The position numbers were made by a program, and so were the translations under genes. Shown here in pieces: positions 1 through 15,028 of a stretch of DNA of 15,028 bases. Positions within the stretch are counted from its first letter, which is position 1; each line of letters begins with the position of its first letter. Source of the DNA: Naegleria gruberi. Its lineage: Eukaryota. The stretch lies in the NCBI GenBank assembly GCA_000004985.1, contig GG738983.1; one strand, 5' to 3'. The notes beneath the pieces are model-generated. The model was not told the origin of the DNA. It did not search any database and saw only the letters and a list, made by a program, of their open reading frames with translations.

Positions 1-628
1 TATTATCATTAATATTTAAATCATGATTATATTCATCAGATAAAGATATAGCCATATCTAAAATAGATCTATAACCAGTACATCTACATAAATTACCATC
101 TAAAGATAATTCAATTTGTTTAATTGTAGGCTTTGAATAATTTCTTAATAAGGAATATAAACTCATAATAATACCAGGTGTACAAAAACCACATTGTAAA
201 GCATTAAATTAAACAACTTTACTTTTTAATAAAGTTAAAATTGAATCTTGTTTAATACCTTCTATAGTAATAATAGAACATCCATCTAAATGTATTAATG
301 GATATAAACAGGCATTAATAGAATAATTAATAATCTTATTTTGTAATGTATCATATTTAGATAACATTACAATACAACTACCACATCCACCTTCTGAACA
401 ACCTATTTTAGTACCTGTTAATTTTAAATATTCTCTCAAATATTCTGCTAAATTTAATTTAATTAATAAATTATTTAATTTTAATTCAATACGTTCACCA
501 TTAACATAAAATAATATTTTACTATTATTATTATTTGTATTATTATTTTCAAGTTGAACTTGATCATCATTAAAATTGAAAGTTAATGATGCTGATGATG
601 ATTTAATATCATTATTATTGATTATCAT
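1..628 (-). CDS. xdh: Xanthine dehydrogenase/aldehyde oxidase family protein, N-terminal part with two [2Fe-2S] iron-sulfur domains; partial, the 3' end runs beyond window position 1; single in-frame TAA at 209-211
   Basis: Minus-strand translation from ATG 628-626 gives [125 protein letters not shown]. This matches the plant-type ferredoxin-like 2Fe-2S domain of XDH/AOX (FxVNG..., TGTKxGCxEGGCGxCxVMxSxYD, NACL). After the TAA at 209-211 the same frame continues [51 protein letters not shown], the second 2Fe-2S motif (QCGFCTPG...[12 protein letters not shown]). The poly-Asn insert is low-complexity. The ORF-track start at 634 is a TTG; the first ATG is 628-626. Confidence 0.85.
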
Positions 629-639
629 TCTCAAGTTGT

Positions 640-900
640 TGATTTTAAATGATGATGAGGCTGATTGATGATGGCGTTGAAGATTTGCGATTAATTGGAG
701 AGAAAAAGTTACAGTAGTGTTGAGTTATTGTTTTTTCAACAGAGAAACACGAGTGGTGGAGAGGCTCAATATTGTTGAATGGTTCATGGATTCTGAAATT
801 GAGCGGAGCGGTTAGATCACAAACCATATTTGGCCGATCTATAGATATTTTTGCTCAACGTTTCCATTTCGGTAACACAAGGTTCATGGAATGAAAACAC
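640..900. other. GC-enriched island just upstream of the xdh start codon; function unknown (5' UTR/promoter, ncRNA or mobile-element remnant)
   Basis: Visibly less AT-rich than the flanks, with runs such as gagcggagcggttagatcacaaaccatatttggccgatc. The 10-mer ggttcatgga occurs at 781-790 and 881-890. A minus-strand ATG ORF (827..645) uses GC-rich codons (ccg, ctc, gct, tcg) that are atypical for the surrounding genes. No convincing tRNA/snRNA fold could be derived by eye. Confidence 0.3.
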
Positions 901-1150
901 TTAATTTTATTATTTATCAAATTTATTATTAAAATCGATGGTTGAGAAGAATTGTAGTAAATCTTCCCTTAATAAATGCAGAGGTGAACCCATGTCTAAA
1001 TTACCTGCTATTGGAGTTCATAAGGGATTAGACAAAAACTCGTAGTAGTTATACATTATTGTAAAAGTATTTGAAACTGATTCTTAATAATAGTGTGATC
1101 ATGAACATGTATTGAACTTGTTCCACATCAATTATTATTATAATAAAAAA

Positions 1151-4100
1151 NNNNNNNNNNNNNNNNNNNNNNNNNNNNNNNNNNNNNNNNNNNNNNNNNN
1201 NNNNNNNNNNNNNNNNNNNNNNNNNNNNNNNNNNNNNNNNNNNNNNNNNNNNNNNNNNNNNNNNNNNNNNNNNNNNNNNNNNNNNNNNNNNNNNNNNNNN
1301 NNNNNNNNNNNNNNNNNNNNNNNNNNNNNNNNNNNNNNNNNNNNNNNNNNNNNNNNNNNNNNNNNNNNNNNNNNNNNNNNNNNNNNNNNNNNNNNNNNNN
1401 NNNNNNNNNNNNNNNNNNNNNNNNNNNNNNNNNNNNNNNNNNNNNNNNNNNNNNNNNNNNNNNNNNNNNNNNNNNNNNNNNNNNNNNNNNNNNNNNNNNN
1501 NNNNNNNNNNNNNNNNNNNNNNNNNNNNNNNNNNNNNNNNNNNNNNNNNNNNNNNNNNNNNNNNNNNNNNNNNNNNNNNNNNNNNNNNNNNNNNNNNNNN
1601 NNNNNNNNNNNNNNNNNNNNNNNNNNNNNNNNNNNNNNNNNNNNNNNNNNNNNNNNNNNNNNNNNNNNNNNNNNNNNNNNNNNNNNNNNNNNNNNNNNNN
1701 NNNNNNNNNNNNNNNNNNNNNNNNNNNNNNNNNNNNNNNNNNNNNNNNNNNNNNNNNNNNNNNNNNNNNNNNNNNNNNNNNNNNNNNNNNNNNNNNNNNN
1801 NNNNNNNNNNNNNNNNNNNNNNNNNNNNNNNNNNNNNNNNNNNNNNNNNNNNNNNNNNNNNNNNNNNNNNNNNNNNNNNNNNNNNNNNNNNNNNNNNNNN
1901 NNNNNNNNNNNNNNNNNNNNNNNNNNNNNNNNNNNNNNNNNNNNNNNNNNNNNNNNNNNNNNNNNNNNNNNNNNNNNNNNNNNNNNNNNNNNNNNNNNNN
2001 NNNNNNNNNNNNNNNNNNNNNNNNNNNNNNNNNNNNNNNNNNNNNNNNNNNNNNNNNNNNNNNNNNNNNNNNNNNNNNNNNNNNNNNNNNNNNNNNNNNN
2101 NNNNNNNNNNNNNNNNNNNNNNNNNNNNNNNNNNNNNNNNNNNNNNNNNNNNNNNNNNNNNNNNNNNNNNNNNNNNNNNNNNNNNNNNNNNNNNNNNNNN
2201 NNNNNNNNNNNNNNNNNNNNNNNNNNNNNNNNNNNNNNNNNNNNNNNNNNNNNNNNNNNNNNNNNNNNNNNNNNNNNNNNNNNNNNNNNNNNNNNNNNNN
2301 NNNNNNNNNNNNNNNNNNNNNNNNNNNNNNNNNNNNNNNNNNNNNNNNNNNNNNNNNNNNNNNNNNNNNNNNNNNNNNNNNNNNNNNNNNNNNNNNNNNN
2401 NNNNNNNNNNNNNNNNNNNNNNNNNNNNNNNNNNNNNNNNNNNNNNNNNNNNNNNNNNNNNNNNNNNNNNNNNNNNNNNNNNNNNNNNNNNNNNNNNNNN
2501 NNNNNNNNNNNNNNNNNNNNNNNNNNNNNNNNNNNNNNNNNNNNNNNNNNNNNNNNNNNNNNNNNNNNNNNNNNNNNNNNNNNNNNNNNNNNNNNNNNNN
2601 NNNNNNNNNNNNNNNNNNNNNNNNNNNNNNNNNNNNNNNNNNNNNNNNNNNNNNNNNNNNNNNNNNNNNNNNNNNNNNNNNNNNNNNNNNNNNNNNNNNN
2701 NNNNNNNNNNNNNNNNNNNNNNNNNNNNNNNNNNNNNNNNNNNNNNNNNNNNNNNNNNNNNNNNNNNNNNNNNNNNNNNNNNNNNNNNNNNNNNNNNNNN
2801 NNNNNNNNNNNNNNNNNNNNNNNNNNNNNNNNNNNNNNNNNNNNNNNNNNNNNNNNNNNNNNNNNNNNNNNNNNNNNNNNNNNNNNNNNNNNNNNNNNNN
2901 NNNNNNNNNNNNNNNNNNNNNNNNNNNNNNNNNNNNNNNNNNNNNNNNNNNNNNNNNNNNNNNNNNNNNNNNNNNNNNNNNNNNNNNNNNNNNNNNNNNN
3001 NNNNNNNNNNNNNNNNNNNNNNNNNNNNNNNNNNNNNNNNNNNNNNNNNNNNNNNNNNNNNNNNNNNNNNNNNNNNNNNNNNNNNNNNNNNNNNNNNNNN
3101 NNNNNNNNNNNNNNNNNNNNNNNNNNNNNNNNNNNNNNNNNNNNNNNNNNNNNNNNNNNNNNNNNNNNNNNNNNNNNNNNNNNNNNNNNNNNNNNNNNNN
3201 NNNNNNNNNNNNNNNNNNNNNNNNNNNNNNNNNNNNNNNNNNNNNNNNNNNNNNNNNNNNNNNNNNNNNNNNNNNNNNNNNNNNNNNNNNNNNNNNNNNN
3301 NNNNNNNNNNNNNNNNNNNNNNNNNNNNNNNNNNNNNNNNNNNNNNNNNNNNNNNNNNNNNNNNNNNNNNNNNNNNNNNNNNNNNNNNNNNNNNNNNNNN
3401 NNNNNNNNNNNNNNNNNNNNNNNNNNNNNNNNNNNNNNNNNNNNNNNNNNNNNNNNNNNNNNNNNNNNNNNNNNNNNNNNNNNNNNNNNNNNNNNNNNNN
3501 NNNNNNNNNNNNNNNNNNNNNNNNNNNNNNNNNNNNNNNNNNNNNNNNNNNNNNNNNNNNNNNNNNNNNNNNNNNNNNNNNNNNNNNNNNNNNNNNNNNN
3601 NNNNNNNNNNNNNNNNNNNNNNNNNNNNNNNNNNNNNNNNNNNNNNNNNNNNNNNNNNNNNNNNNNNNNNNNNNNNNNNNNNNNNNNNNNNNNNNNNNNN
3701 NNNNNNNNNNNNNNNNNNNNNNNNNNNNNNNNNNNNNNNNNNNNNNNNNNNNNNNNNNNNNNNNNNNNNNNNNNNNNNNNNNNNNNNNNNNNNNNNNNNN
3801 NNNNNNNNNNNNNNNNNNNNNNNNNNNNNNNNNNNNNNNNNNNNNNNNNNNNNNNNNNNNNNNNNNNNNNNNNNNNNNNNNNNNNNNNNNNNNNNNNNNN
3901 NNNNNNNNNNNNNNNNNNNNNNNNNNNNNNNNNNNNNNNNNNNNNNNNNNNNNNNNNNNNNNNNNNNNNNNNNNNNNNNNNNNNNNNNNNNNNNNNNNNN
4001 NNNNNNNNNNNNNNNNNNNNNNNNNNNNNNNNNNNNNNNNNNNNNNNNNNNNNNNNNNNNNNNNNNNNNNNNNNNNNNNNNNNNNNNNNNNNNNNNNNNN

Positions 4101-6124
4101 NNNNNNNNNNNNNNNNNNNNNNNNNNNNNNNNNNNNNNNNNNNNNNNNNNNNNNNNNNNNNNNNNNNNNNNNNNNNNNNNNNNNNNNNNNNNNNNNNNNN
4201 NNNNNNNNNNNNNNNNNNNNNNNNNNNNNNNNNNNNNNNNNNNNNNNNNNNNNNNNNNNNNNNNNNNNNNNNNNNNNNNNNNNNNNNNNNNNNNNNNNNN
4301 NNNNNNNNNNNNNNNNNNNNNNNNNNNNNNNNNNNNNNNNNNNNNNNNNNNNNNNNNNNNNNNNNNNNNNNNNNNNNNNNNNNNNNNNNNNNNNNNNNNN
4401 NNNNNNNNNNNNNNNNNNNNNNNNNNNNNNNNNNNNNNNNNNNNNNNNNNNNNNNNNNNNNNNNNNNNNNNNNNNNNNNNNNNNNNNNNNNNNNNNNNNN
4501 NNNNNNNNNNNNNNNNNNNNNNNNNNNNNNNNNNNNNNNNNNNNNNNNNNNNNNNNNNNNNNNNNNNNNNNNNNNNNNNNNNNNNNNNNNNNNNNNNNNN
4601 NNNNNNNNNNNNNNNNNNNNNNNNNNNNNNNNNNNNNNNNNNNNNNNNNNNNNNNNNNNNNNNNNNNNNNNNNNNNNNNNNNNNNNNNNNNNNNNNNNNN
4701 NNNNNNNNNNNNNNNNNNNNNNNNNNNNNNNNNNNNNNNNNNNNNNNNNNNNNNNNNNNNNNNNNNNNNNNNNNNNNNNNNNNNNNNNNNNNNNNNNNNN
4801 NNNNNNNNNNNNNNNNNNNNNNNNNNNNNNNNNNNNNNNNNNNNNNNNNNNNNNNNNNNNNNNNNNNNNNNNNNNNNNNNNNNNNNNNNNNNNNNNNNNN
4901 NNNNNNNNNNNNNNNNNNNNNNNNNNNNNNNNNNNNNNNNNNNNNNNNNNNNNNNNNNNNNNNNNNNNNNNNNNNNNNNNNNNNNNNNNNNNNNNNNNNN
5001 NNNNNNNNNNNNNNNNNNNNNNNNNNNNNNNNNNNNNNNNNNNNNNNNNNNNNNNNNNNNNNNNNNNNNNNNNNNNNNNNNNNNNNNNNNNNNNNNNNNN
5101 NNNNNNNNNNNNNNNNNNNNNNNNNNNNNNNNNNNNNNNNNNNNNNNNNNNNNNNNNNNNNNNNNNNNNNNNNNNNNNNNNNNNNNNNNNNNNNNNNNNN
5201 NNNNNNNNNNNNNNNNNNNNNNNNNNNNNNNNNNNNNNNNNNNNNNNNNNNNNNNNNNNNNNNNNNNNNNNNNNNNNNNNNNNNNNNNNNNNNNNNNNNN
5301 NNNNNNNNNNNNNNNNNNNNNNNNNNNNNNNNNNNNNNNNNNNNNNNNNNNNNNNNNNNNNNNNNNNNNNNNNNNNNNNNNNNNNNNNNNNNNNNNNNNN
5401 NNNNNNNNNNNNNNNNNNNNNNNNNNNNNNNNNNNNNNNNNNNNNNNNNNNNNNNNNNNNNNNNNNNNNNNNNNNNNNNNNNNNNNNNNNNNNNNNNNNN
5501 NNNNNNNNNNNNNNNNNNNNNNNNNNNNNNNNNNNNNNNNNNNNNNNNNNNNNNNNNNNNNNNNNNNNNNNNNNNNNNNNNNNNNNNNNNNNNNNNNNNN
5601 NNNNNNNNNNNNNNNNNNNNNNNNNNNNNNNNNNNNNNNNNNNNNNNNNNNNNNNNNNNNNNNNNNNNNNNNNNNNNNNNNNNNNNNNNNNNNNNNNNNN
5701 NNNNNNNNNNNNNNNNNNNNNNNNNNNNNNNNNNNNNNNNNNNNNNNNNNNNNNNNNNNNNNNNNNNNNNNNNNNNNNNNNNNNNNNNNNNNNNNNNNNN
5801 NNNNNNNNNNNNNNNNNNNNNNNNNNNNNNNNNNNNNNNNNNNNNNNNNNNNNNNNNNNNNNNNNNNNNNNNNNNNNNNNNNNNNNNNNNNNNNNNNNNN
5901 NNNNNNNNNNNNNNNNNNNNNNNNNNNNNNNNNNNNNNNNNNNNNNNNNNNNNNNNNNNNNNNNNNNNNNNNNNNNNNNNNNNNNNNNNNNNNNNNNNNN
6001 NNNNNNNNNNNNNNNNNNNNNNNNNNNNNNNNNNNNNNNNNNNNNNNNNNNNNNNNNNNNNNNNNNNNNNNNNNNNNNNNNNNNNNNNNNNNNNNNNNNN
6101 NNNNNNNNNNNNNNNNNNNNNNNN
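1151..6124. other. Assembly gap (run of 4974 N)
   Basis: Uninterrupted n characters. All ORF-track entries spanning it (1049..6127, 1112..6154, 1128..6161) are poly-X artifacts. Confidence 0.99.
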
Positions 6125-6468
6125 CATACCTTTTCAAGCTCCAGAAATTCGTAAAAAGCAAAACTATGATGAAAAGATTGACATTTACAGTCTTGGGGCT
6201 ACTTTATTGTATCTCAAAAACAAGACCTCATATGAAATAATCTGTAAAAAAGACGAATTTGATCTTCAAGTTGACATGCAAACACTCCAATGGGATGATT
6301 TTAAATTTGGAAAAAATATTGGAAATGGTTAATGAAGATCCAAAGAAAAGACCTTCAGCTCAAGAGCTTGCCGATTATTTTACTACTCTTTACAACAACC
6401 CACAAACAACAAACGCAGAAACTAAAGACCAAGAAGATTTCGAAATGCTTTATGATCAAGAAAGATAA
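6125..6468 (+). CDS. Protein kinase, C-terminal lobe only (subdomains VIII-XI); the 5' part is lost in gap 1. The reading frame shifts by +1 between about 6290 and 6330 (frame 0 stops at 6330-6332, frame 1 continues to the stop at 6466-6468).
   Basis: Frame starting at 6126 reads IPFQAPEIRKKQNYDEKIDIYSLGATLLYLKNKTSYEIICKKDEFDLQVDMQTLQWDDFKFGKNIGNG*. This holds the APE motif and the D-x-W-S-x-G-like subdomain IX (DIYSLG). The frame containing 6259 reads ...ILNLEKILEMVNEDPKKRPSAQELADYFTTLYNNPQTTNAETKDQEDFEMLYDQER*, the subdomain XI DPxxRP motif. Removing one A from the A6 run at 6311-6316 gives the continuous ...WDDFKFGKILEMVNEDPKKRPSAQELADYF. Confidence 0.8.
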
Positions 6469-6912
6469 AAAGGTTAGCAAACAAATTGAAGATATTGAAA
6501 TAACATTTAGAACATTGCCTTAATTGGAAAGAATCCTGTTGGAATATTTTCAAATGGTAAAGGTGTCAAATCTTTCCAAAACTTTAAAATCAATTGAGAC
6601 ATTTGAAAGATTGACAACTCTTTCTACCCAAATTCATAATTCCATTTGCAACGATCTACTTCTCTTTTCCTTAATATCTCAAATCTTTTGCCAATCTTTG
6701 CAAAAATGATAAAACTTTTGCAAATTTGTTTACAAAATCTTACAATGGATCATATTTTACCAATAAATTATGAATTTCAGATGGATTTACATTCTAAAAG
6801 TAAAACACCTCCTTTATCAAATGGGAGTTTGATTATTCTACTAACCTGATATTTCATTGTGATCGGTATTAATGAGAAGGAATTAAATTATATTTAAAAT
6901 ATTTTAAAAAAA

Positions 6913-7980
6913 ATGTCTGAAGATTGGGTTTGTTTTGTGATGCAATTTTATTAATGGGTGTGATGACCATCACAAATAACAGGCCGATAGGACGTATGTG
7001 TTGGAAGCTGTTAAACAACGTGGAAATGCACTTGAATATGTAGATGAATCATTTAAAAAAGATAGAGAATTTATATTGGAAGCTGTAAAACATAATGGAT
7101 GGGAACTTTTATATGTTGATTCATCATTGAAAAAAGATAGGGAAATTGTATTGGAAGCTGTTAAACATAATGGATCAGCTCTCGAATATGCTGATTCATC
7201 ATTGAAAAAAGATAGAGAAATTGTACTGGAAGCTGTTAAACAAAATGGATCAGCACTTAAATATGCTGATTCATTATTTAAAAGAGATAGAGAAATTGTA
7301 TTGGAATTTGTTAAACATAATGGATCAGCACTTAAATATGTTGATTCTTCATTGAAAAAAGATAGAGAAATTGTATTGGAAGCTGTTAAACAATGTGGAC
7401 ATGCAGTTCAATATGCTGATTTATTCATTGAAAAAAGATAGAGAAATTGTATTGGAAGCTGTTAAACAATGTGGACATGCAGTTGAATATGCTGATTATT
7501 ATTCAAAAAGATAGAGAAATTGTATTGGAATCTGTTAAACAAAATGGATCAGCACTTGTATATGCTGATTCATCATTTAAAAAAGATAGAGAAATTGTAT
7601 TGGAAGCTGTTAAACAACATGAATTGGCACTTGAATATGCTGATTCATCTTTACAAAGAGATATCGTTTTTATATATTCACTTTTTAAATTGAACAAAGA
7701 AAATACAAGAAGCTTCTCACCCTCTATAACCAAAACCATTGAAGAAGCCAATATTAATCTTCAGAGAAAGCTGTCAAGCAATATAATTGAACAGCAATAC
7801 TCCAAAATATTTATGGATGAAAAGGATTTATATTATGCTATTGAATTAACAAGTCTCTTTAATCCAACACCAAAAGGTACAATATTCAATTTCAATTCTA
7901 TCTATACACCAATATTTGTTGAAAAGCTTGATTATTTTCCAAATATTGAAACGAATGAACCATTCAGAATTATCCACTGA
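6913..7980 (+). CDS. DUF4116-like tandem-repeat protein (about 8 copies of a 31-aa repeat, consensus SALEYADSSLKKDREIVLEAVKQNG) plus a non-repetitive roughly 100-aa C-terminal tail. Proposed model is join(6913..6927, 6983..7980) with a 55-nt intron. The frame is disrupted by a +1 indel near 7427 and a -2 indel near 7487 (net -1).
   Basis: ORF-track pieces 6998..7441 and 7447..7980 both encode the same 31-aa repeat (LEAVKxNGxALxYxDSSLKKDREIV). The first piece has no internal Met, and an in-frame TAA at 6977-6979 lies just upstream, so a spliced 5' exon is needed. aaaaaaaATGTCTGAAGATTGG (6913-6927) followed by GTTTGT...AATAACAG (6928-6982) joins in frame to GCC GAT AGG ACG TAT... The protein ends at TGA 7978-7980, just before gap 2. 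The name DUF4116 is assigned from memory of the Pfam repeat motif (ALxYAxxxLxxDxExVLxAVxxNG), not from a search. Confidence 0.7.
6928..6982 (+). other. Putative 55-nt intron of the DUF4116-like gene (GTTTGT...AACAG); an alternative donor at 6937 (GTGATG) gives a 46-nt intron
   Basis: Inferred only from the need to join an ATG-containing exon to the Met-less repeat ORF in the same phase. The donor is non-canonical. It contains a small inverted repeat gtgatg-ac-catcac (6961-6974). Confidence 0.35.
7001..7670 (+). repeat. In-frame coding tandem array of 93-bp units (about 7.5 copies, roughly 85-95% identical). Units 5 (7373-7466) and 6 (7467-7557) are near-identical duplicates (QCGHAV variant), 94 and 91 nt long.
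   Basis: Direct reading of the sequence. ttggaagctgttaaacaa...gattcatcattgaaaaaagatagagaaattgta recurs with a 93-nt period. Unit 5 has gatttattcattg where the canonical unit has gattcatcattg (+1). Unit 6 has gattattattcaaaaagatagag where the canonical unit has gattcatcattgaaaaaagatagag (-2). Confidence 0.9.
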
Positions 7981-8000
7981 AACTCTTCTTTCAGCCAACT

Positions 8001-11000
8001 NNNNNNNNNNNNNNNNNNNNNNNNNNNNNNNNNNNNNNNNNNNNNNNNNNNNNNNNNNNNNNNNNNNNNNNNNNNNNNNNNNNNNNNNNNNNNNNNNNNN
8101 NNNNNNNNNNNNNNNNNNNNNNNNNNNNNNNNNNNNNNNNNNNNNNNNNNNNNNNNNNNNNNNNNNNNNNNNNNNNNNNNNNNNNNNNNNNNNNNNNNNN
8201 NNNNNNNNNNNNNNNNNNNNNNNNNNNNNNNNNNNNNNNNNNNNNNNNNNNNNNNNNNNNNNNNNNNNNNNNNNNNNNNNNNNNNNNNNNNNNNNNNNNN
8301 NNNNNNNNNNNNNNNNNNNNNNNNNNNNNNNNNNNNNNNNNNNNNNNNNNNNNNNNNNNNNNNNNNNNNNNNNNNNNNNNNNNNNNNNNNNNNNNNNNNN
8401 NNNNNNNNNNNNNNNNNNNNNNNNNNNNNNNNNNNNNNNNNNNNNNNNNNNNNNNNNNNNNNNNNNNNNNNNNNNNNNNNNNNNNNNNNNNNNNNNNNNN
8501 NNNNNNNNNNNNNNNNNNNNNNNNNNNNNNNNNNNNNNNNNNNNNNNNNNNNNNNNNNNNNNNNNNNNNNNNNNNNNNNNNNNNNNNNNNNNNNNNNNNN
8601 NNNNNNNNNNNNNNNNNNNNNNNNNNNNNNNNNNNNNNNNNNNNNNNNNNNNNNNNNNNNNNNNNNNNNNNNNNNNNNNNNNNNNNNNNNNNNNNNNNNN
8701 NNNNNNNNNNNNNNNNNNNNNNNNNNNNNNNNNNNNNNNNNNNNNNNNNNNNNNNNNNNNNNNNNNNNNNNNNNNNNNNNNNNNNNNNNNNNNNNNNNNN
8801 NNNNNNNNNNNNNNNNNNNNNNNNNNNNNNNNNNNNNNNNNNNNNNNNNNNNNNNNNNNNNNNNNNNNNNNNNNNNNNNNNNNNNNNNNNNNNNNNNNNN
8901 NNNNNNNNNNNNNNNNNNNNNNNNNNNNNNNNNNNNNNNNNNNNNNNNNNNNNNNNNNNNNNNNNNNNNNNNNNNNNNNNNNNNNNNNNNNNNNNNNNNN
9001 NNNNNNNNNNNNNNNNNNNNNNNNNNNNNNNNNNNNNNNNNNNNNNNNNNNNNNNNNNNNNNNNNNNNNNNNNNNNNNNNNNNNNNNNNNNNNNNNNNNN
9101 NNNNNNNNNNNNNNNNNNNNNNNNNNNNNNNNNNNNNNNNNNNNNNNNNNNNNNNNNNNNNNNNNNNNNNNNNNNNNNNNNNNNNNNNNNNNNNNNNNNN
9201 NNNNNNNNNNNNNNNNNNNNNNNNNNNNNNNNNNNNNNNNNNNNNNNNNNNNNNNNNNNNNNNNNNNNNNNNNNNNNNNNNNNNNNNNNNNNNNNNNNNN
9301 NNNNNNNNNNNNNNNNNNNNNNNNNNNNNNNNNNNNNNNNNNNNNNNNNNNNNNNNNNNNNNNNNNNNNNNNNNNNNNNNNNNNNNNNNNNNNNNNNNNN
9401 NNNNNNNNNNNNNNNNNNNNNNNNNNNNNNNNNNNNNNNNNNNNNNNNNNNNNNNNNNNNNNNNNNNNNNNNNNNNNNNNNNNNNNNNNNNNNNNNNNNN
9501 NNNNNNNNNNNNNNNNNNNNNNNNNNNNNNNNNNNNNNNNNNNNNNNNNNNNNNNNNNNNNNNNNNNNNNNNNNNNNNNNNNNNNNNNNNNNNNNNNNNN
9601 NNNNNNNNNNNNNNNNNNNNNNNNNNNNNNNNNNNNNNNNNNNNNNNNNNNNNNNNNNNNNNNNNNNNNNNNNNNNNNNNNNNNNNNNNNNNNNNNNNNN
9701 NNNNNNNNNNNNNNNNNNNNNNNNNNNNNNNNNNNNNNNNNNNNNNNNNNNNNNNNNNNNNNNNNNNNNNNNNNNNNNNNNNNNNNNNNNNNNNNNNNNN
9801 NNNNNNNNNNNNNNNNNNNNNNNNNNNNNNNNNNNNNNNNNNNNNNNNNNNNNNNNNNNNNNNNNNNNNNNNNNNNNNNNNNNNNNNNNNNNNNNNNNNN
9901 NNNNNNNNNNNNNNNNNNNNNNNNNNNNNNNNNNNNNNNNNNNNNNNNNNNNNNNNNNNNNNNNNNNNNNNNNNNNNNNNNNNNNNNNNNNNNNNNNNNN
10001 NNNNNNNNNNNNNNNNNNNNNNNNNNNNNNNNNNNNNNNNNNNNNNNNNNNNNNNNNNNNNNNNNNNNNNNNNNNNNNNNNNNNNNNNNNNNNNNNNNNN
10101 NNNNNNNNNNNNNNNNNNNNNNNNNNNNNNNNNNNNNNNNNNNNNNNNNNNNNNNNNNNNNNNNNNNNNNNNNNNNNNNNNNNNNNNNNNNNNNNNNNNN
10201 NNNNNNNNNNNNNNNNNNNNNNNNNNNNNNNNNNNNNNNNNNNNNNNNNNNNNNNNNNNNNNNNNNNNNNNNNNNNNNNNNNNNNNNNNNNNNNNNNNNN
10301 NNNNNNNNNNNNNNNNNNNNNNNNNNNNNNNNNNNNNNNNNNNNNNNNNNNNNNNNNNNNNNNNNNNNNNNNNNNNNNNNNNNNNNNNNNNNNNNNNNNN
10401 NNNNNNNNNNNNNNNNNNNNNNNNNNNNNNNNNNNNNNNNNNNNNNNNNNNNNNNNNNNNNNNNNNNNNNNNNNNNNNNNNNNNNNNNNNNNNNNNNNNN
10501 NNNNNNNNNNNNNNNNNNNNNNNNNNNNNNNNNNNNNNNNNNNNNNNNNNNNNNNNNNNNNNNNNNNNNNNNNNNNNNNNNNNNNNNNNNNNNNNNNNNN
10601 NNNNNNNNNNNNNNNNNNNNNNNNNNNNNNNNNNNNNNNNNNNNNNNNNNNNNNNNNNNNNNNNNNNNNNNNNNNNNNNNNNNNNNNNNNNNNNNNNNNN
10701 NNNNNNNNNNNNNNNNNNNNNNNNNNNNNNNNNNNNNNNNNNNNNNNNNNNNNNNNNNNNNNNNNNNNNNNNNNNNNNNNNNNNNNNNNNNNNNNNNNNN
10801 NNNNNNNNNNNNNNNNNNNNNNNNNNNNNNNNNNNNNNNNNNNNNNNNNNNNNNNNNNNNNNNNNNNNNNNNNNNNNNNNNNNNNNNNNNNNNNNNNNNN
10901 NNNNNNNNNNNNNNNNNNNNNNNNNNNNNNNNNNNNNNNNNNNNNNNNNNNNNNNNNNNNNNNNNNNNNNNNNNNNNNNNNNNNNNNNNNNNNNNNNNNN

Positions 11001-12527
11001 NNNNNNNNNNNNNNNNNNNNNNNNNNNNNNNNNNNNNNNNNNNNNNNNNNNNNNNNNNNNNNNNNNNNNNNNNNNNNNNNNNNNNNNNNNNNNNNNNNNN
11101 NNNNNNNNNNNNNNNNNNNNNNNNNNNNNNNNNNNNNNNNNNNNNNNNNNNNNNNNNNNNNNNNNNNNNNNNNNNNNNNNNNNNNNNNNNNNNNNNNNNN
11201 NNNNNNNNNNNNNNNNNNNNNNNNNNNNNNNNNNNNNNNNNNNNNNNNNNNNNNNNNNNNNNNNNNNNNNNNNNNNNNNNNNNNNNNNNNNNNNNNNNNN
11301 NNNNNNNNNNNNNNNNNNNNNNNNNNNNNNNNNNNNNNNNNNNNNNNNNNNNNNNNNNNNNNNNNNNNNNNNNNNNNNNNNNNNNNNNNNNNNNNNNNNN
11401 NNNNNNNNNNNNNNNNNNNNNNNNNNNNNNNNNNNNNNNNNNNNNNNNNNNNNNNNNNNNNNNNNNNNNNNNNNNNNNNNNNNNNNNNNNNNNNNNNNNN
11501 NNNNNNNNNNNNNNNNNNNNNNNNNNNNNNNNNNNNNNNNNNNNNNNNNNNNNNNNNNNNNNNNNNNNNNNNNNNNNNNNNNNNNNNNNNNNNNNNNNNN
11601 NNNNNNNNNNNNNNNNNNNNNNNNNNNNNNNNNNNNNNNNNNNNNNNNNNNNNNNNNNNNNNNNNNNNNNNNNNNNNNNNNNNNNNNNNNNNNNNNNNNN
11701 NNNNNNNNNNNNNNNNNNNNNNNNNNNNNNNNNNNNNNNNNNNNNNNNNNNNNNNNNNNNNNNNNNNNNNNNNNNNNNNNNNNNNNNNNNNNNNNNNNNN
11801 NNNNNNNNNNNNNNNNNNNNNNNNNNNNNNNNNNNNNNNNNNNNNNNNNNNNNNNNNNNNNNNNNNNNNNNNNNNNNNNNNNNNNNNNNNNNNNNNNNNN
11901 NNNNNNNNNNNNNNNNNNNNNNNNNNNNNNNNNNNNNNNNNNNNNNNNNNNNNNNNNNNNNNNNNNNNNNNNNNNNNNNNNNNNNNNNNNNNNNNNNNNN
12001 NNNNNNNNNNNNNNNNNNNNNNNNNNNNNNNNNNNNNNNNNNNNNNNNNNNNNNNNNNNNNNNNNNNNNNNNNNNNNNNNNNNNNNNNNNNNNNNNNNNN
12101 NNNNNNNNNNNNNNNNNNNNNNNNNNNNNNNNNNNNNNNNNNNNNNNNNNNNNNNNNNNNNNNNNNNNNNNNNNNNNNNNNNNNNNNNNNNNNNNNNNNN
12201 NNNNNNNNNNNNNNNNNNNNNNNNNNNNNNNNNNNNNNNNNNNNNNNNNNNNNNNNNNNNNNNNNNNNNNNNNNNNNNNNNNNNNNNNNNNNNNNNNNNN
12301 NNNNNNNNNNNNNNNNNNNNNNNNNNNNNNNNNNNNNNNNNNNNNNNNNNNNNNNNNNNNNNNNNNNNNNNNNNNNNNNNNNNNNNNNNNNNNNNNNNNN
12401 NNNNNNNNNNNNNNNNNNNNNNNNNNNNNNNNNNNNNNNNNNNNNNNNNNNNNNNNNNNNNNNNNNNNNNNNNNNNNNNNNNNNNNNNNNNNNNNNNNNN
12501 NNNNNNNNNNNNNNNNNNNNNNNNNNN
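8001..12527. other. Assembly gap (run of 4527 N). It swallows the 3' end of the minus-strand Cys-rich gene and lies just downstream of the DUF4116-like gene stop.
   Basis: Uninterrupted n characters. ORF-track entries 7916..12532, 7991..12547 and the 7846..12527 portion of 7846..15021 are artifacts. Confidence 0.99.
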
Positions 12528-15028
12528 TGTAATTGTAATTTTGACAATAATTATTATTAGAAATTAAACTAATGTAAATTGGAACTGTCAAGGTAAGAAC
12601 AACTCCAGAAGAATCTAATTGTTGAGTGACTCTTGAATCAGAAATCAAATCAGAAATAGAAGTAGAAATAGAATATTGAGTTTCACATGTCAATTGACTT
12701 GTAGAATTTGTGACAAGATCAGTAACATTTCTTTCACAAGTAGAAATTTCAGAGAATGATAATCTTGTCATGTTTGTAGATCTTGAAAGAATATTAGAAA
12801 CTGAAATGGTATACATAATCTTTGAAGATCCTAAATTTGTAACTGAAACCTTTGGCGGAGAATTAATAAACGAAAGACAATTCTCCGTCTGAATTTCACA
12901 CATTGAACCACTTGAATATGGAGGACATGTGAGACAAGATGTGGAATTGATACAACTTTCACATGTAGATGGACAAGTATTACTACAATCTGAACCATAT
13001 AATCCATTAAAACATTTAGAACATTGATTTGGAGATGAACATGTAATGCAATTCTCATTACAAACTGGAATTTGACATGTTGGACCTGTCCATCCAGATC
13101 TACATGTTGAACATGATACCTCTGATGAACATGATTTGCAATTAGATGGGCATGTTATATTACAATAACTTCCATAATATCCTTCATTACATTCTAAACA
13201 ATCACCTGTACTTGTTGAACAGGTTGCACAATTGGAAACTTTACAAACTTTCTCATTACAATATTGACCTTTCAAACCATCTAAACACTTATTACATGTT
13301 TCACTTGATGAACATACTTCACAATTAACTAAACATTTGAGTCTACATAATTTAGAAGTATCATAAAATCCACTCTTACATGATTGACAATTAGATGCAG
13401 ATGGAAGACAATTAGAAACTGAACTAATCTCACAATTAGTACCATTATATCCATTTGGACATGAACAATTATTAGGTGAGAGACATGAACCAATACCAGA
13501 ACATACACTAGCAACATCAGCTCTCTTTCCACCACAAATTGGAACTTCACAATTAATTCCTGCATAACCTGTTTTACAATAACACATATCCATCTCTTCA
13601 CAAATTCCATTTCCACTACATACATTAGGATCTGAATCAAATAATCCATTACACATGGTTGGTGAATAAATAATATTTCCAATAACTTGCTTTCCACCAC
13701 CACCTCCCCATATCGTACCTGTAGTAGGTGAATTTGTTCCTGGATATGGAAATTTATAGAAATCTCCTAGAATGTAATTATTACCATTATATGCTGTGAA
13801 CAAAAGAGAGTTATAATTTTGTATGAATGTTATTCTAGTGATTCTCTCAGATGTTCCAATAAATGATGTAGATAAGAGTGTTGGATAGGAAACTCTTGGT
13901 AGTAATGACCCCCAGTAACCTGTGTAAAATATTTTTCCACTCTCCATTAGATACAATACGAAATATTGTGCAAAAGTAATGGACAAGAGAATTTCACTTC
14001 CAAAAGTAGTAATATCTAATTCCAGTGGTGAATATTGGCAAAGGCCAGTATTTGTACCGTAGTAACTATCAGAAATTGGACCCCAACCATATAATCTTCT
14101 TGATTCTCTACTGTAAGCGAAACATAAATATCGAGAATGGCAAGAAAGGTATGAAATTTTGTGTGGAATAGCTAATTTTGTAAAGTTGGTTTTGTAAACT
14201 CCAAAAAATCCACTTGGACAACATCCAGCAACAGATAATTCACCAAAAGATCTAACATTTCCTTCTTTAGTCAAAAAAAAGGAAAAGTAATTATTTGTAT
14301 AAACATCAATAAATGTCTCATTAATACCAGTATTGTATATCATTGTTGGAGAAATAGGGAATGAAACATAAGGACTTTGTGGAGTAATTATTAAAATACC
14401 TGGAACAGATGTTGTTGCCATGAATAATGTAGAGGAACTAGATAGACTTGTAAAAGGTGCAAATGTAGCATTATTGAAAAGTAATGTACTACTTGCAGCT
14501 GCAGACTGTGTTGGAAGCGTAAAGCCGAATATAACATCTCTTCTATTTCCAATGCTGAAAAAGCCATTTGATTCAAAATATCTAATACGATATGGTAAGA
14601 CTCCATCAATTCCAGCGGTAGTTGTAATTGTAGATCTAAAATAATTTGGACCAGTTGAGCAAGTTTGTCCAGTAAAACCAGCATCACATTTTGTGCAAGT
14701 CTTATCATCTGAACAAGTCAAACAATTAGGAATGCATGTAAAAGAACAAGTAGCACCAAATGTTCTTGGTAAACATGATGAACACAAATATGGTGTTGAA
14801 CATTTAAGGCAATTTTCTGGACAAATAACTGAGGAACAATTAACGCCTCCATAACCAGAGTTACAAACACAAACACCGTCAATACATTGACCATTCGCAC
14901 AATTGGTACATTTAGGTGCACATGTTGGTGGTGGAGAGGATGTTATAGAATTCTTACATGTCAAACAACTTGTTGCACTCTTACATGTTAAACAATTAGG
15001 ATTACAATAGAATTGACACAATGGACCG
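12528..15028 (-). CDS. Large cysteine-rich secreted/surface protein, partial at both ends (5' end beyond window position 15028, 3' end in gap 2). Contains tenascin/EGF-like and furin-like Cys repeats, a central RCC1-like beta-propeller-like domain, a second EGF-like repeat array, an S/T-rich stalk and a hydrophobic segment.
   Basis: Continuous minus-strand ORF from 15021 down to the gap edge (about 830 codons) with standard-code Gln codons throughout. It opens with repeats such as CNPNCLTCKSATSCLTCKNS and CPENCLKCSTPYLCSSCLPRTFGATCSFTCIPNCLTCSDDKTCTKCDAGFTGQTC, and later CPSNCKSCSSEVSCSTCRSGWTGPTCQIPVCNENCITCSSPNQCSKCFNGLYGSDC (period about 31-32 aa). N-x-S/T sequons are frequent (NATF, NFTK, NETF, NITC, NGTN, NSTS, NMTR, NVTD). 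Confidence 0.85.
12562..12603 (-). other. Hydrophobic segment VVLTLTVPIYISLI (candidate transmembrane helix) immediately before the gap edge
   Basis: 14 mostly aliphatic residues following the S/T-rich stalk and followed by SNNNYCQNYNY. The usual basic stop-transfer residues are not visible because the sequence enters the gap. Confidence 0.35.
12604..12894 (-). other. Ser/Thr-rich, N-glycosylation-sequon-dense stalk-like region
   Basis: LSFINSPPKVSVTNLGSSKIMYTISVSNILSRSTNMTRLSFSEISTCERNVTDLVTNSTSQLTCETQYSISTSISDLISDSRVTQQLDSSG. It is low in Cys, and S+T exceed 35% by eye. Confidence 0.55.
12895..13656 (-). repeat. Second EGF/tenascin-like repeat array (about 8 units of 31-32 aa)
   Basis: Runs from MCNGLFDSDPNVCSGNGICEEMDMCYCKTGYAGINCEVPICGG through CPSTCESCINSTSCLTCPPYSSGSMCEIQTENC with regular 6-8 Cys per unit and G-x-x-G-x-x-C endings. 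Confidence 0.75.
13657..14646 (-). other. Central Cys-poor domain of about 330 aa with RCC1-like repeat signatures (putative beta-propeller), ending in a GGGGG linker (13695-13709)
   Basis: Motifs RRLYGWGPISDSYYGTNTGLCQYSPLEL, AQYFVLYLMESGKIFYTGYWGSLLP and NYFSFFLTKEGNVRSFGELSVAGC match the RCC1/BLIP-II blade pattern (hs-ala-Lt-dG-kvYtWG-n-GqLG...P). Inference from motif memory only. Confidence 0.4.
14647..15028 (-). repeat. N-terminal (in this window) tenascin/EGF-like cysteine-rich repeat block of the Cys-rich protein
   Basis: C-x2-C-x(4-6)-C-x2-C-x(5-8)-G-x2-C spacing repeated at least 4 times, ending ...CTKCDAGFTGQTCSTGP. Confidence 0.7.

What the first reader, a model, noticed from the sequence alone, without database searches (positions are those of the whole stretch)
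13657..14646. RCC1-like beta-propeller signature embedded between extracellular-type EGF/tenascin repeat arrays
RCC1 blades (…dG-kvY-WG-n-GqLG…P…) are typically cytosolic or nuclear GEF modules in eukaryotes. Here three or more blade-like motifs (RLYGWGPISDSYYGTNTG…SPLEL, SGKIFYTGYWGSLLP, TKEGNVRSFGELSVAGC) sit between Cys-rich repeat blocks, in a protein dense with N-glycosylation sequons and ending in an S/T stalk plus a hydrophobic anchor. That is a secretory-pathway context. An extracellular RCC1-like propeller fused to tenascin-type repeats would be an uncommon adhesion or receptor architecture.
Basis: inference. Interest (0 to 1): 0.6.

Follow-up and report, generated by a model that had tools for sequence, protein, structure and literature searches.

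The report
Extracellular RCC1-like propeller in Naegleria lipase
The flagged stretch encodes a very divergent RCC1-type beta-propeller, set between cysteine-rich EGF repeats in a fragment of a large Naegleria gruberi protein whose full-length copy looks secreted, carries a lipase and is probably lipid-anchored; the propeller is also the one part that differs strongly between the genome's two copies.

Summary
The window is a whole 15,028-bp Naegleria gruberi scaffold, and 63% of it is N gaps. On the minus strand, 12529-15027 is an 833-codon open frame cut at both ends.

This domain is a divergent RCC1-like propeller:
- An exhaustive phmmer search found only family members and bona fide RCC1 proteins, plus one compositional match.
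- A family profile hit only RCC1-fold PDB chains (UVR8 1.5e-5).
- hhalign against canonical RCC1 gave 98.5% probability over four blades.

Pfam barely detects it (RCC1_2 22.1 bits, cutoff 22).

The full-length copy NAEGRDRAFT_81427 and its N. fowleri and Willaertia orthologues show the architecture: signal peptide, class-3 lipase, Cys-rich repeats, propeller, teneurin-type EGFs, an unknown roughly 400-480-aa domain, and a GPI-like C-terminal tail. The secretory context is therefore supported.

Extracellular RCC1-like propellers have precedents (plant CRINKLY4, bacterial BLIP-II, a protist receptor-kinase-like protein), so this is a new variant of a known kind.

Unexpectedly, the two N. gruberi copies are about 98.5% identical in the flanks but 79% in the propeller.

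The parts
14647..15027 (-). N-terminal flank (aa 1-127 of the fragment): Cys-rich CXXC/EGF-like repeats. The upstream part of the gene (signal peptide and lipase in the full-length copy) lies beyond the contig end.
   Evidence: Translation. 19.7% Cys. 98.4% identical to P0020 residues 407-533.
13657..14646 (-). Divergent RCC1-like beta-propeller domain (aa 128-457), probably 7 blades of about 47-50 aa. It contains four Cys that are invariant across the family.
13756..14346 (-). The four consecutive blades (aa 228-424) with profile-profile homology to canonical RCC1 repeats.
   Evidence: hhalign 98.5% probability, E 2.5e-15, 189 columns. Blade-HMM hits at segment residues 119-145, 190-199 and 229-251. 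AF2 pLDDT 70-94 here.
13423..13656 (-). Two teneurin/tenascin-type EGF domains directly after the propeller (aa 458-535).
   Evidence: Pfam EGF_Teneurin 25.5 bits (cutoff 24.3) and EGF_2 25.8 bits (cutoff 22.1). 39% identical to the EGF pair that follows the canonical RCC1 repeats of P0026.
12883..13422 (-). Further Cys-rich CXXC/EGF-like repeat array (aa 536-715).
   Evidence: Translation. The EGF_TEN partial hit covers residues 467-661. Internal repeat HSPs.
12529..12882 (-). First ~118 aa of the family's conserved C-terminal domain of unknown fold. The rest is lost in the N gap.
   Evidence: Alignment to P0020 and orthologues. No Pfam or PDB sequence match. Hydropathy.

Best explanation
Window 12529-15027 (minus strand) is a fragment of a second N. 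gruberi copy, either an allele or a recent paralogue, of NAEGRDRAFT_81427. This is a family restricted to the heterolobosean genera Naegleria and Willaertia.

The mature protein is most likely displayed on the cell surface. It appears to have:
- an N-terminal signal peptide;
- a class-3 (GHSQG) lipase with its Ser/Asp/His triad intact at the membrane-distal end;
- a stalk of Cys-rich EGF/CXXC repeats;
- a divergent, probably disulfide-stabilised, roughly 7-bladed RCC1-like beta-propeller (the flagged 330 aa);
- two teneurin-type EGFs and more Cys-rich repeats;
- a domain of roughly 400-480 aa of unknown fold;
- a GPI-signal-like C-terminal tail.

Shown here: RCC1-repeat homology and fold, the domain order, and the terminal hydrophobic segments.

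Inferred: the propeller does not act as a Ran exchange factor. It more likely serves as a ligand-binding platform that positions or targets the tethered lipase on another surface, such as prey, another cell or a substrate membrane. This would parallel the extracellular RCC1-type propellers of plant CRINKLY4 and bacterial BLIP-II, which are binding modules. The strong divergence of just this domain between the two N. gruberi copies fits a recognition surface, but it is not proof.
For: Identity and origin:
- P0001 (XP_002668670.1, 'predicted protein, partial [Naegleria gruberi]') sits on a 15,028-bp contig, which is the window length.
- The full-length near-copy is P0020 (NAEGRDRAFT_81427). Orthologues are N. 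fowleri FDP41_004995 and Willaertia magna ABK040_000830.

RCC1 homology:
- Exhaustive phmmer found, apart from family members and one compositional match, only RCC1-repeat proteins, E down to 7e-11.
- The family profile against PDB gave 28 top hits, all RCC1-fold: UVR8 1.5e-5, RCC1 3e-4, then RPGR, HERC2 and RCC2.
- hhalign against six canonical RCC1 domains gave 98.5% probability, E 2.5e-15.
- Pfam WD40_RLD scored E 3e-6 for the window copy and 2e-11 for the N. fowleri orthologue.

Fold:
- The AF2 model has pTM 0.69, with residues 70-305 mostly at pLDDT 70-94.
- The top 44 Foldseek PDB hits are all RCC1-like propellers, E 8e-11 to 8e-8.

Secretory topology:
- Each full-length protein has exactly two strong hydrophobic segments, at the extreme N- and C-termini.
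- The flanks are 18-20% Cys, and four Cys within the propeller are invariant.

Lipase:
- PF01764 scores 56-79 bits, with GHSQGG and the downstream Asp and His conserved.

Module precedent:
- The window protein is collinear with P0026 over its last blades plus the EGF pair. In P0026 canonical RCC1 repeats and two EGFs lie between a signal segment and a transmembrane segment followed by a kinase.
Against: - Pfam's curated thresholds are essentially not met: RCC1_2 reaches 22.1 bits against a cutoff of 22 only when the domain is scanned alone, PF00415 gives no hit, and PF25390 gives 27 bits against 150.
- The GQLG signature is lost.
- Only 3-4 blades are recognisable by sequence. The first ~46 and last ~45 residues of the modelled segment have pLDDT below 50, so seven closed blades are inferred rather than shown.
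- The AF2 alignment contained canonical RCC1 sequences, which biases the model toward that fold. The single-sequence model was uninformative (pLDDT 37.6).
- Signal peptide and GPI signal were judged from hydropathy and position only, with no dedicated predictor.
- The window copy itself lacks both termini.
- No experimental or literature data exist for this gene. The binding and targeting role is inference by analogy.
Confidence: 0.75

Rival explanations
1. The central domain is a different extracellular propeller type that typically sits next to EGF modules (YWTD/LDL-receptor class B, or NHL as in teneurins), and the RCC1 resemblance is superficial.
For: EGF-propeller-EGF is the classic LDLR/nidogen arrangement (established knowledge). 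The flanking EGFs are teneurin-like. Motifs such as YGWG and FYTGYWG are vaguely YWTD-like.
Confidence: 0.04
2. The window copy is not an independent functional gene. It is either the alternative haplotype (allele) of NAEGRDRAFT_81427, left as a small gap-ridden scaffold because its propeller was too divergent to collapse in assembly, or a decaying duplicate.
For: The flanks are 98.4-98.9% identical to P0020. The scaffold is only 15 kb with 63% N. Naegleria is described as a heterozygous diploid (PMC9928731). The deposited gene model is partial and mis-spliced across a gap.
Against: The reading frame is intact over 833 codons with all Cys-repeat spacing preserved, so it is not obviously decaying. 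21% amino-acid divergence confined to one domain is extreme for ordinary alleles. The allele-versus-paralogue question does not change what the domain is.
Confidence: 0.5
3. The propeller is only a rigid spacer in the stalk, with no ligand-binding or targeting function.
For: Differences between the two N. gruberi copies fall on strands and loops alike (21/132 against 23/127). Between species the propeller evolves no faster than the rest of the protein (31% identity against 27-43%). No conserved surface could be mapped.
Against: The domain is retained in all three genera with invariant W-G, Cys and Gly/Pro positions. Extracellular RCC1-type propellers with known roles are binders: BLIP-II (PMC9218822) and CRINKLY4 (PMC4617170). 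Intra-genome divergence concentrated on this one domain (p 3e-23) is hard to explain for a pure spacer.
Confidence: 0.2
4. The protein is intracellular and the propeller acts as a small-GTPase exchange factor like RCC1.
For: This is the canonical role of eukaryotic RCC1-like domains (established knowledge; Hadjebi et al. 2008, cited in PMC9218822).
Against: The full-length orthologues have an N-terminal signal-like segment and a C-terminal hydrophobic tail. The protein carries dozens of EGF/CXXC disulfide modules and has invariant Cys inside the propeller. The consensus RCC1 loops (GQLG) are lost.
Confidence: 0.02

Closest known systems
Canonical RCC1-like domains (RCC1/Prp20, RCC1L/WBSCR16, HERC1/2 RLDs, RPGR, UVR8)
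   Different: The location is extracellular and Cys-containing rather than cytosolic or nuclear. Blades are shorter (about 47-50 aa). The GQLG loop signature is lost. It falls below Pfam thresholds, and NAEGRDRAFT_81427 gets no RCC1 Pfam hit at all at E up to 0.01. No GTPase partner is plausible.
Plant CRINKLY4/ACR4 receptor kinases (extracellular 'crinkly' RCC1-like propeller plus TNFR-like Cys-rich repeats)
   Same: A eukaryotic extracellular RCC1-related seven-repeat propeller with conserved Cys, adjacent to Cys-rich repeats (PMC4617170).
   Different: CR4 repeats are about 39 aa with regularly paired Cys and are followed by TNFR repeats, a transmembrane helix and a kinase. Here the blades are about 48 aa with only four invariant Cys, the partners are EGF/CXXC repeats and a lipase, and there is no kinase. 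Direct sequence comparison with CR4 was not run.
P0026-type protist receptor-kinase-like proteins (assembly GCA_037189345.1; organism not resolved)
   Same: An RCC1 propeller is followed immediately by the same pair of teneurin-type EGFs. The EGF pair is 39% identical, and the alignment is collinear across the last blades plus the EGFs. The repeats lie between a signal-like segment and a transmembrane segment, so they are extracellular.
   Different: P0026 has about 12 canonical RCC1 repeats (PF00415 321 bits) and a transmembrane helix plus a cytoplasmic kinase. It has no lipase and no C-terminal unknown domain.
Bacterial secreted RCC1/BLIP-II-type propellers (BLIP-II; surface proteins with PKD, Ig-like or Listeria-Bacteroides repeats)
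   Same: Secreted or surface RCC1-type propellers used as binding modules (PMC9218822). Several of the closest remote hits (P0008, P0010, P0011) have this kind of architecture.
YWTD (LDL-receptor class B) propeller flanked by EGF modules
   Same: The same overall logic: a propeller inserted in an extracellular EGF array.
   Different: A different propeller family. No sequence or fold support here.

Membership tests
RCC1-like repeat propeller superfamily (Pfam PF00415 / PF13540 / PF25390) | Hit to a Pfam RCC1 model at the curated gathering threshold | tested here: inconclusive
   RCC1_2 scores 22.1 bits against a cutoff of 22 when the 330 aa are scanned alone, but 18.5 bits in the 833-aa fragment. 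PF00415 gives no hit. PF25390 gives 27.1 bits against a cutoff of 150. Orthologues: RCC1_2 27.4 bits in Willaertia, 22.0 in the N. fowleri fragment P0002 (19.8 in the full-length P0021), none in P0020.
RCC1-like repeat propeller superfamily | Statistically significant sequence homology to bona fide RCC1 repeats | tested here: met
   phmmer against 1.84 billion proteins gave hits outside the family with E 7e-11 to 9e-4; all those checked by Pfam are RCC1 proteins except one compositional S-layer match. Family profile against PDB: UVR8 1.5e-5, RCC1 3e-4. hhalign 98.5%, E 2.5e-15 over 189 columns.
RCC1-like repeat propeller superfamily | Seven-bladed propeller fold of RCC1 type | tested here: inconclusive
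RCC1-like repeat propeller superfamily | Tandem 50-60-aa repeats with the conserved G..WG.N..GQLG pattern | tested here: inconclusive
   A blade HMM built from 66 canonical blades finds 3 blades plus a weak fourth in some family members. The WG/FG position is kept, but the GQLG loop is replaced, for example by PISDSYYG or YWGSLLP.
RCC1-type guanine-nucleotide exchange factors | Cytosolic or nuclear location with access to a small GTPase | tested here: not met
   The full-length copies have a signal-like N-terminus, a hydrophobic C-terminal tail, and disulfide-type modules on both sides of the propeller.
RCC1-type guanine-nucleotide exchange factors | Exchange activity or a beta-wedge contacting Ran | not testable with these tools
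   Needs biochemistry or a reliable model of the top face.
Teneurin/tenascin-type EGF repeats | Pfam EGF_Teneurin / EGF_2 at the gathering threshold | tested here: met
   PF23106 scores 25.5 bits (cutoff 24.3) and PF07974 scores 25.8 bits (cutoff 22.1), at aa 468-532.
YWTD / LDL-receptor class B propeller | Ldl_recept_b repeats or YWTD-propeller fold | tested here: not met
CRINKLY4-type extracellular propeller receptors | About 39-aa Cys-paired crinkly repeats plus TNFR repeats, a transmembrane helix and a kinase | tested here: not met
   None of the three full-length orthologues has a kinase, TNFR repeats or an internal transmembrane helix. Blade length is about 48 aa. Direct alignment to CR4 was not done.
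Class-3 lipase (PF01764), full-length family only | Lipase_3 domain with GxSxG nucleophile and Asp/His | tested here: met
   PF01764 scores 66.7, 56.5 and 78.6 bits in P0020, P0021 and P0025. GHSQGG and the downstream D and H are conserved. This region is not present in the window, which ends at the contig boundary.
GPI-anchored surface protein | N-terminal signal peptide plus a C-terminal hydrophobic signal with no cytoplasmic tail | tested here: inconclusive
   The hydropathy peaks are only at the extreme N- and C-termini, and the last hydrophobic stretch ends 0-3 residues from the C-terminus after a Ser/Asn-rich spacer. No GPI or signal-peptide predictor was available.

The most novel reading that the evidence does not exclude
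The RCC1-like propeller is a polymorphic recognition module. In N. gruberi, two copies that are about 98.5% identical in every other region differ by 21% in exactly this domain. That would fit balancing or diversifying selection on a surface that recognises prey, pathogens or conspecific cells, and that directs a tethered lipase for contact-dependent membrane attack. This would be a previously undescribed use of the RCC1 fold in a free-living or pathogenic amoeba lineage.
Probability: 0.15. Interest if true: 0.7.

Novelty: new variant of a known kind. Interest (0 to 1): 0.45.

Why it matters
In eukaryotes, RCC1-like propellers are treated almost by default as intracellular GTPase or ubiquitin-pathway modules. 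This family adds a clear case outside plants of the fold working in the secretory pathway, and it is divergent enough that Pfam leaves it unannotated in the reference protein.

It also defines a family found here only in Naegleria and Willaertia: lipase, EGF repeats, propeller, EGF repeats, an unknown domain, and an anchor. The family has an orthologue in the brain-eating amoeba N. fowleri (FDP41_004995). I recall that membrane-damaging lipases have been discussed as cytopathic factors in that species, but I did not check this. A surface-tethered lipase with a binding propeller is a concrete, testable candidate for contact-dependent feeding or cytolysis.

The domain-restricted divergence between the two N. 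gruberi copies gives a specific population-genetic question to test.

Tried and rejected
- The word-indexed protein search with the domain, and with a 3-sequence family alignment, returned nothing. The exhaustive HMMER search was what found the family.
- Scans of bacterial/archaeal genomes and of metagenome contigs found no relatives.
- Single-sequence AF2 was uninformative (pLDDT 37.6).
- The afdb50 fold library was unavailable.
- DNA for the NAEGRDRAFT_81427 locus could not be retrieved, so dN/dS between the two copies could not be computed.
- Literature searches found nothing for the gene identifiers or for 'class 3 lipase' in Naegleria.
- The C-terminal domain profile has no PDB or Pfam match.

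Rejected readings:
- A YWTD/NHL propeller, because it has no sequence or fold support.
- A membrane anchor at VVLTLTVPIYISLI, because it is a conserved internal segment.
- Sequon enrichment, because 11 were observed against 14.6 expected.
- The hit to S-layer protein P0004, which is a compositional match to the S/T-rich N-terminal part.
Full report
**What the window is**

The 15,028 bases consist of three islands of real sequence: 1-1150, 6125-8000 and 12528-15028. They are separated by N runs of 4,974 and 4,527 bases. An exact look-up shows that the deposited protein on this contig is XP_002668670.1, 'predicted protein, partial [Naegleria gruberi]'. Its longest contig is 15,028 bp, so the window is a whole small scaffold of the N. 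gruberi assembly.

**Checking the observation**

The feature is on the minus strand. The frame starting at 15027 is open for 833 codons and is cut by the contig end and by the N gap.

The flanks are 18-20% Cys. They pass the Pfam thresholds for EGF_2 and EGF_Teneurin.

Two parts of the description do not hold:
- N-glycosylation sequons number 11, against 14.6 expected from composition.
- The 'hydrophobic anchor' VVLTLTVPIYISLI is an internal segment. It aligns to the conserved YTLTIPFYVAF and YTLTFPIYVAF of the N. fowleri and Willaertia orthologues, and about 390 more residues follow it in the full-length copy.

**Is the central domain RCC1-like?**

Pfam alone is borderline. RCC1_2 scores 22.1 bits against a cutoff of 22. 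WD40_RLD scores 27 bits (E 3e-6) against a cutoff of 150. PF00415 gives nothing.

Stronger tests agree with each other:
- An exhaustive phmmer search of 1.84 billion representative proteins returned 19 hits. Three are the family itself. One is a compositional match to an S-layer protein. Every other hit checked by Pfam (P0003, P0006-P0014) is a bona fide RCC1-repeat protein. Their library-wide E-values run down to 7e-11.
- A profile of the four family sequences hit 28 PDB chains before anything else appeared. All are RCC1-fold: UVR8 1.5e-5, RCC1 3e-4, then RPGR, HERC2, RCC1L and RCC2.
- hhalign of that profile against six canonical RCC1 domains gave 98.5% probability, E 2.5e-15, over four consecutive blades.
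- AF2 with a 14-sequence alignment gave pTM 0.69, with the core (residues about 70-305 of the 350 modelled) mostly at pLDDT 70-94.
- The top 44 Foldseek hits against PDB are all RCC1-like propellers.

Caveats on the structure evidence:
- The AF2 alignment contained canonical RCC1 sequences, which may bias the model.
- The single-sequence model was useless.
- The first and last roughly 45 residues are not confidently modelled.
- Seven blades are therefore inferred from domain length (about 330 aa at 47-50 aa per blade) and from the MAFFT register, not shown.

**Context and architecture**

The full-length N. gruberi copy is P0020 (NAEGRDRAFT_81427, 1608 aa). The N. fowleri orthologue is P0021 (FDP41_004995, 1667 aa). 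The Willaertia magna orthologue is P0025 (1600 aa). All three share one layout:
- an N-terminal hydrophobic, signal-like segment;
- a Lipase_3 domain (56-79 bits) with GHSQGG and the downstream Asp and His conserved;
- Cys-rich CXXC/EGF repeats;
- the propeller;
- two teneurin-type EGFs and more CXXC repeats;
- a conserved domain of roughly 400-480 aa with no Pfam or PDB sequence match;
- a Ser/Thr/Asn-rich stretch;
- a hydrophobic tail ending 0-3 residues from the C-terminus, which is GPI-signal-like.

Each protein has exactly two strong hydropathy peaks, one at each extreme end. Four Cys inside the propeller are invariant across the family. This fits disulfides in an oxidising compartment. 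The secretory-pathway reading is therefore supported, although no dedicated signal-peptide or GPI predictor was available.

**Most likely function**

Shown: an RCC1-homologous propeller is embedded in a secreted-type, Cys-rich protein whose full-length form carries a class-3 lipase with an intact catalytic triad.

Inferred: the protein is surface-tethered, and the propeller is a binding platform rather than a GEF. It would position or target the lipase at another surface. The analogy is to the known extracellular members of the fold. CRINKLY4's extracellular crinkly repeats are modelled on RCC1 and BLIP-II (PMC4617170). BLIP-II is a secreted binder (PMC9218822).

A further precedent emerged here. 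P0026 has about 12 canonical RCC1 repeats plus the same pair of teneurin EGFs between a signal-like segment and a transmembrane helix followed by a kinase. The window protein aligns collinearly with it across the last blades and the EGF pair.

**An unexpected observation**

The window copy and P0020 differ in a strikingly uneven way:

| Region | Identity |
|---|---|
| N-terminal flank (aa 1-127) | 98.4% |
| Propeller (aa 128-457) | 79.1% |
| C-terminal flank (aa 458-830) | 98.9% |

The excess in the propeller is highly significant (Fisher p 3e-23).

- Differences fall on predicted strands and loops alike.
- The two Willaertia copies show a weak version of the same pattern: 96.8% in the propeller against 98.2-99.4% elsewhere, p 0.009.
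- Between N. gruberi and N. fowleri, the propeller is no faster-evolving than the rest of the protein.
- Naegleria is described as a heterozygous diploid (PMC9928731). The small scaffold may therefore be an alternative haplotype that failed to collapse because of this domain.
- I cannot distinguish balancing or diversifying selection from an old variant whose flanks were homogenised by gene conversion. The DNA of the other locus was not retrievable.

**Comparison with known families, and novelty**

The domain belongs to the RCC1-like repeat superfamily by homology and predicted fold. It fails or only grazes the curated Pfam thresholds and has lost the GQLG loops. It is not an RCC1-type GEF by context, not a YWTD or NHL propeller, and not a CRINKLY4 receptor, since it has no kinase, TNFR repeats or internal transmembrane helix.

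The family is narrow. Only Naegleria and Willaertia members were found. Prokaryotic genome and metagenome scans found none.

The databases list the members as 'hypothetical' or 'EGF-like domain-containing' proteins. I found no literature on them.

I therefore rate it a new variant of a known kind. Extracellular RCC1-type propellers already have precedents. The protein is a lipase-bearing surface protein rather than a simple adhesin or receptor.

**Verdict**

| Claim | Confidence |
|---|---|
| The domain is an RCC1-like propeller | about 0.9 |
| The protein is extracellular or surface-displayed | about 0.85 |
| The propeller is a targeting or binding module for the lipase | about 0.4 |

Interest is 0.45. 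That would rise if the domain-restricted polymorphism proves to be selected.

Noticed in passing
window 12529-15027 (-) compared with P0020: The two N. gruberi copies are 98.4% and 98.9% identical in the EGF flanks but only 79.1% in the propeller (Fisher p 3e-23). The divergence is confined to the flagged domain.
   Followed up: partly
window ~7833-7901 (-) and 12528-12546 (-): The deposited gene model XP_002668670.1 ends in 'IELKLNIVPFGVGLKRLVNSIA'. That peptide is encoded about 4.6 kb away on the other side of the N gap, so this is an annotation artefact. The real C-terminal ~390 aa are missing in the gap.
   Followed up: yes
window 1151-6124 and 8001-12527: Two N runs make up 9,501 of the 15,028 bases (63%). 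The long 'ORFs' listed through them are meaningless.
   Followed up: yes
window 1-1150 (-): N-terminus of a xanthine dehydrogenase/aldehyde oxidase-like protein (Fer2 plus Fer2_2 [2Fe-2S] domains). One in-frame stop lies between the two domains, which suggests a short intron.
   Followed up: partly
window 6998-7980 (+): An array of DUF4116 repeats (REIVLEAVKQNGSALKYADSSLKKD) is split into two ORFs in different frames (6998-7441 and 7447-7980). This could be a short intron or a frameshift. A protein-kinase C-lobe fragment lies at about 6125-6330 (+).
   Followed up: partly
L001 1001-4780 (P0026; GCA_037189345.1 contig JBBCKJ010037481.1): A receptor-kinase-like protein with about 12 canonical RCC1 repeats and two teneurin EGFs outside a transmembrane helix, and a kinase inside. 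It is an independent example of an extracellular RCC1+EGF module. The organism was not resolved.
   Followed up: partly
window 13657-14646 (-): segment Cys152, Cys179, Cys185, Cys213 (fragment aa 269, 296, 302, 330): Four cysteines inside the propeller are invariant in all four family sequences and may form two disulfides. Canonical RCC1 has no such pattern.
   Followed up: no
P0020 residues ~1128-1530; window 12529-12882 (-) covers its start: A conserved, apparently beta-rich C-terminal domain of roughly 400-480 aa (invariant LCC, GxxGCT and CFIHTE motifs) has no Pfam or PDB sequence match.
   Followed up: partly
P0025 compared with P0005 (Willaertia magna): The two Willaertia copies also concentrate their few differences in the last propeller blades: 11 of 23 differences fall in 342 of 1,515 aligned residues (p 0.009).
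   Followed up: partly
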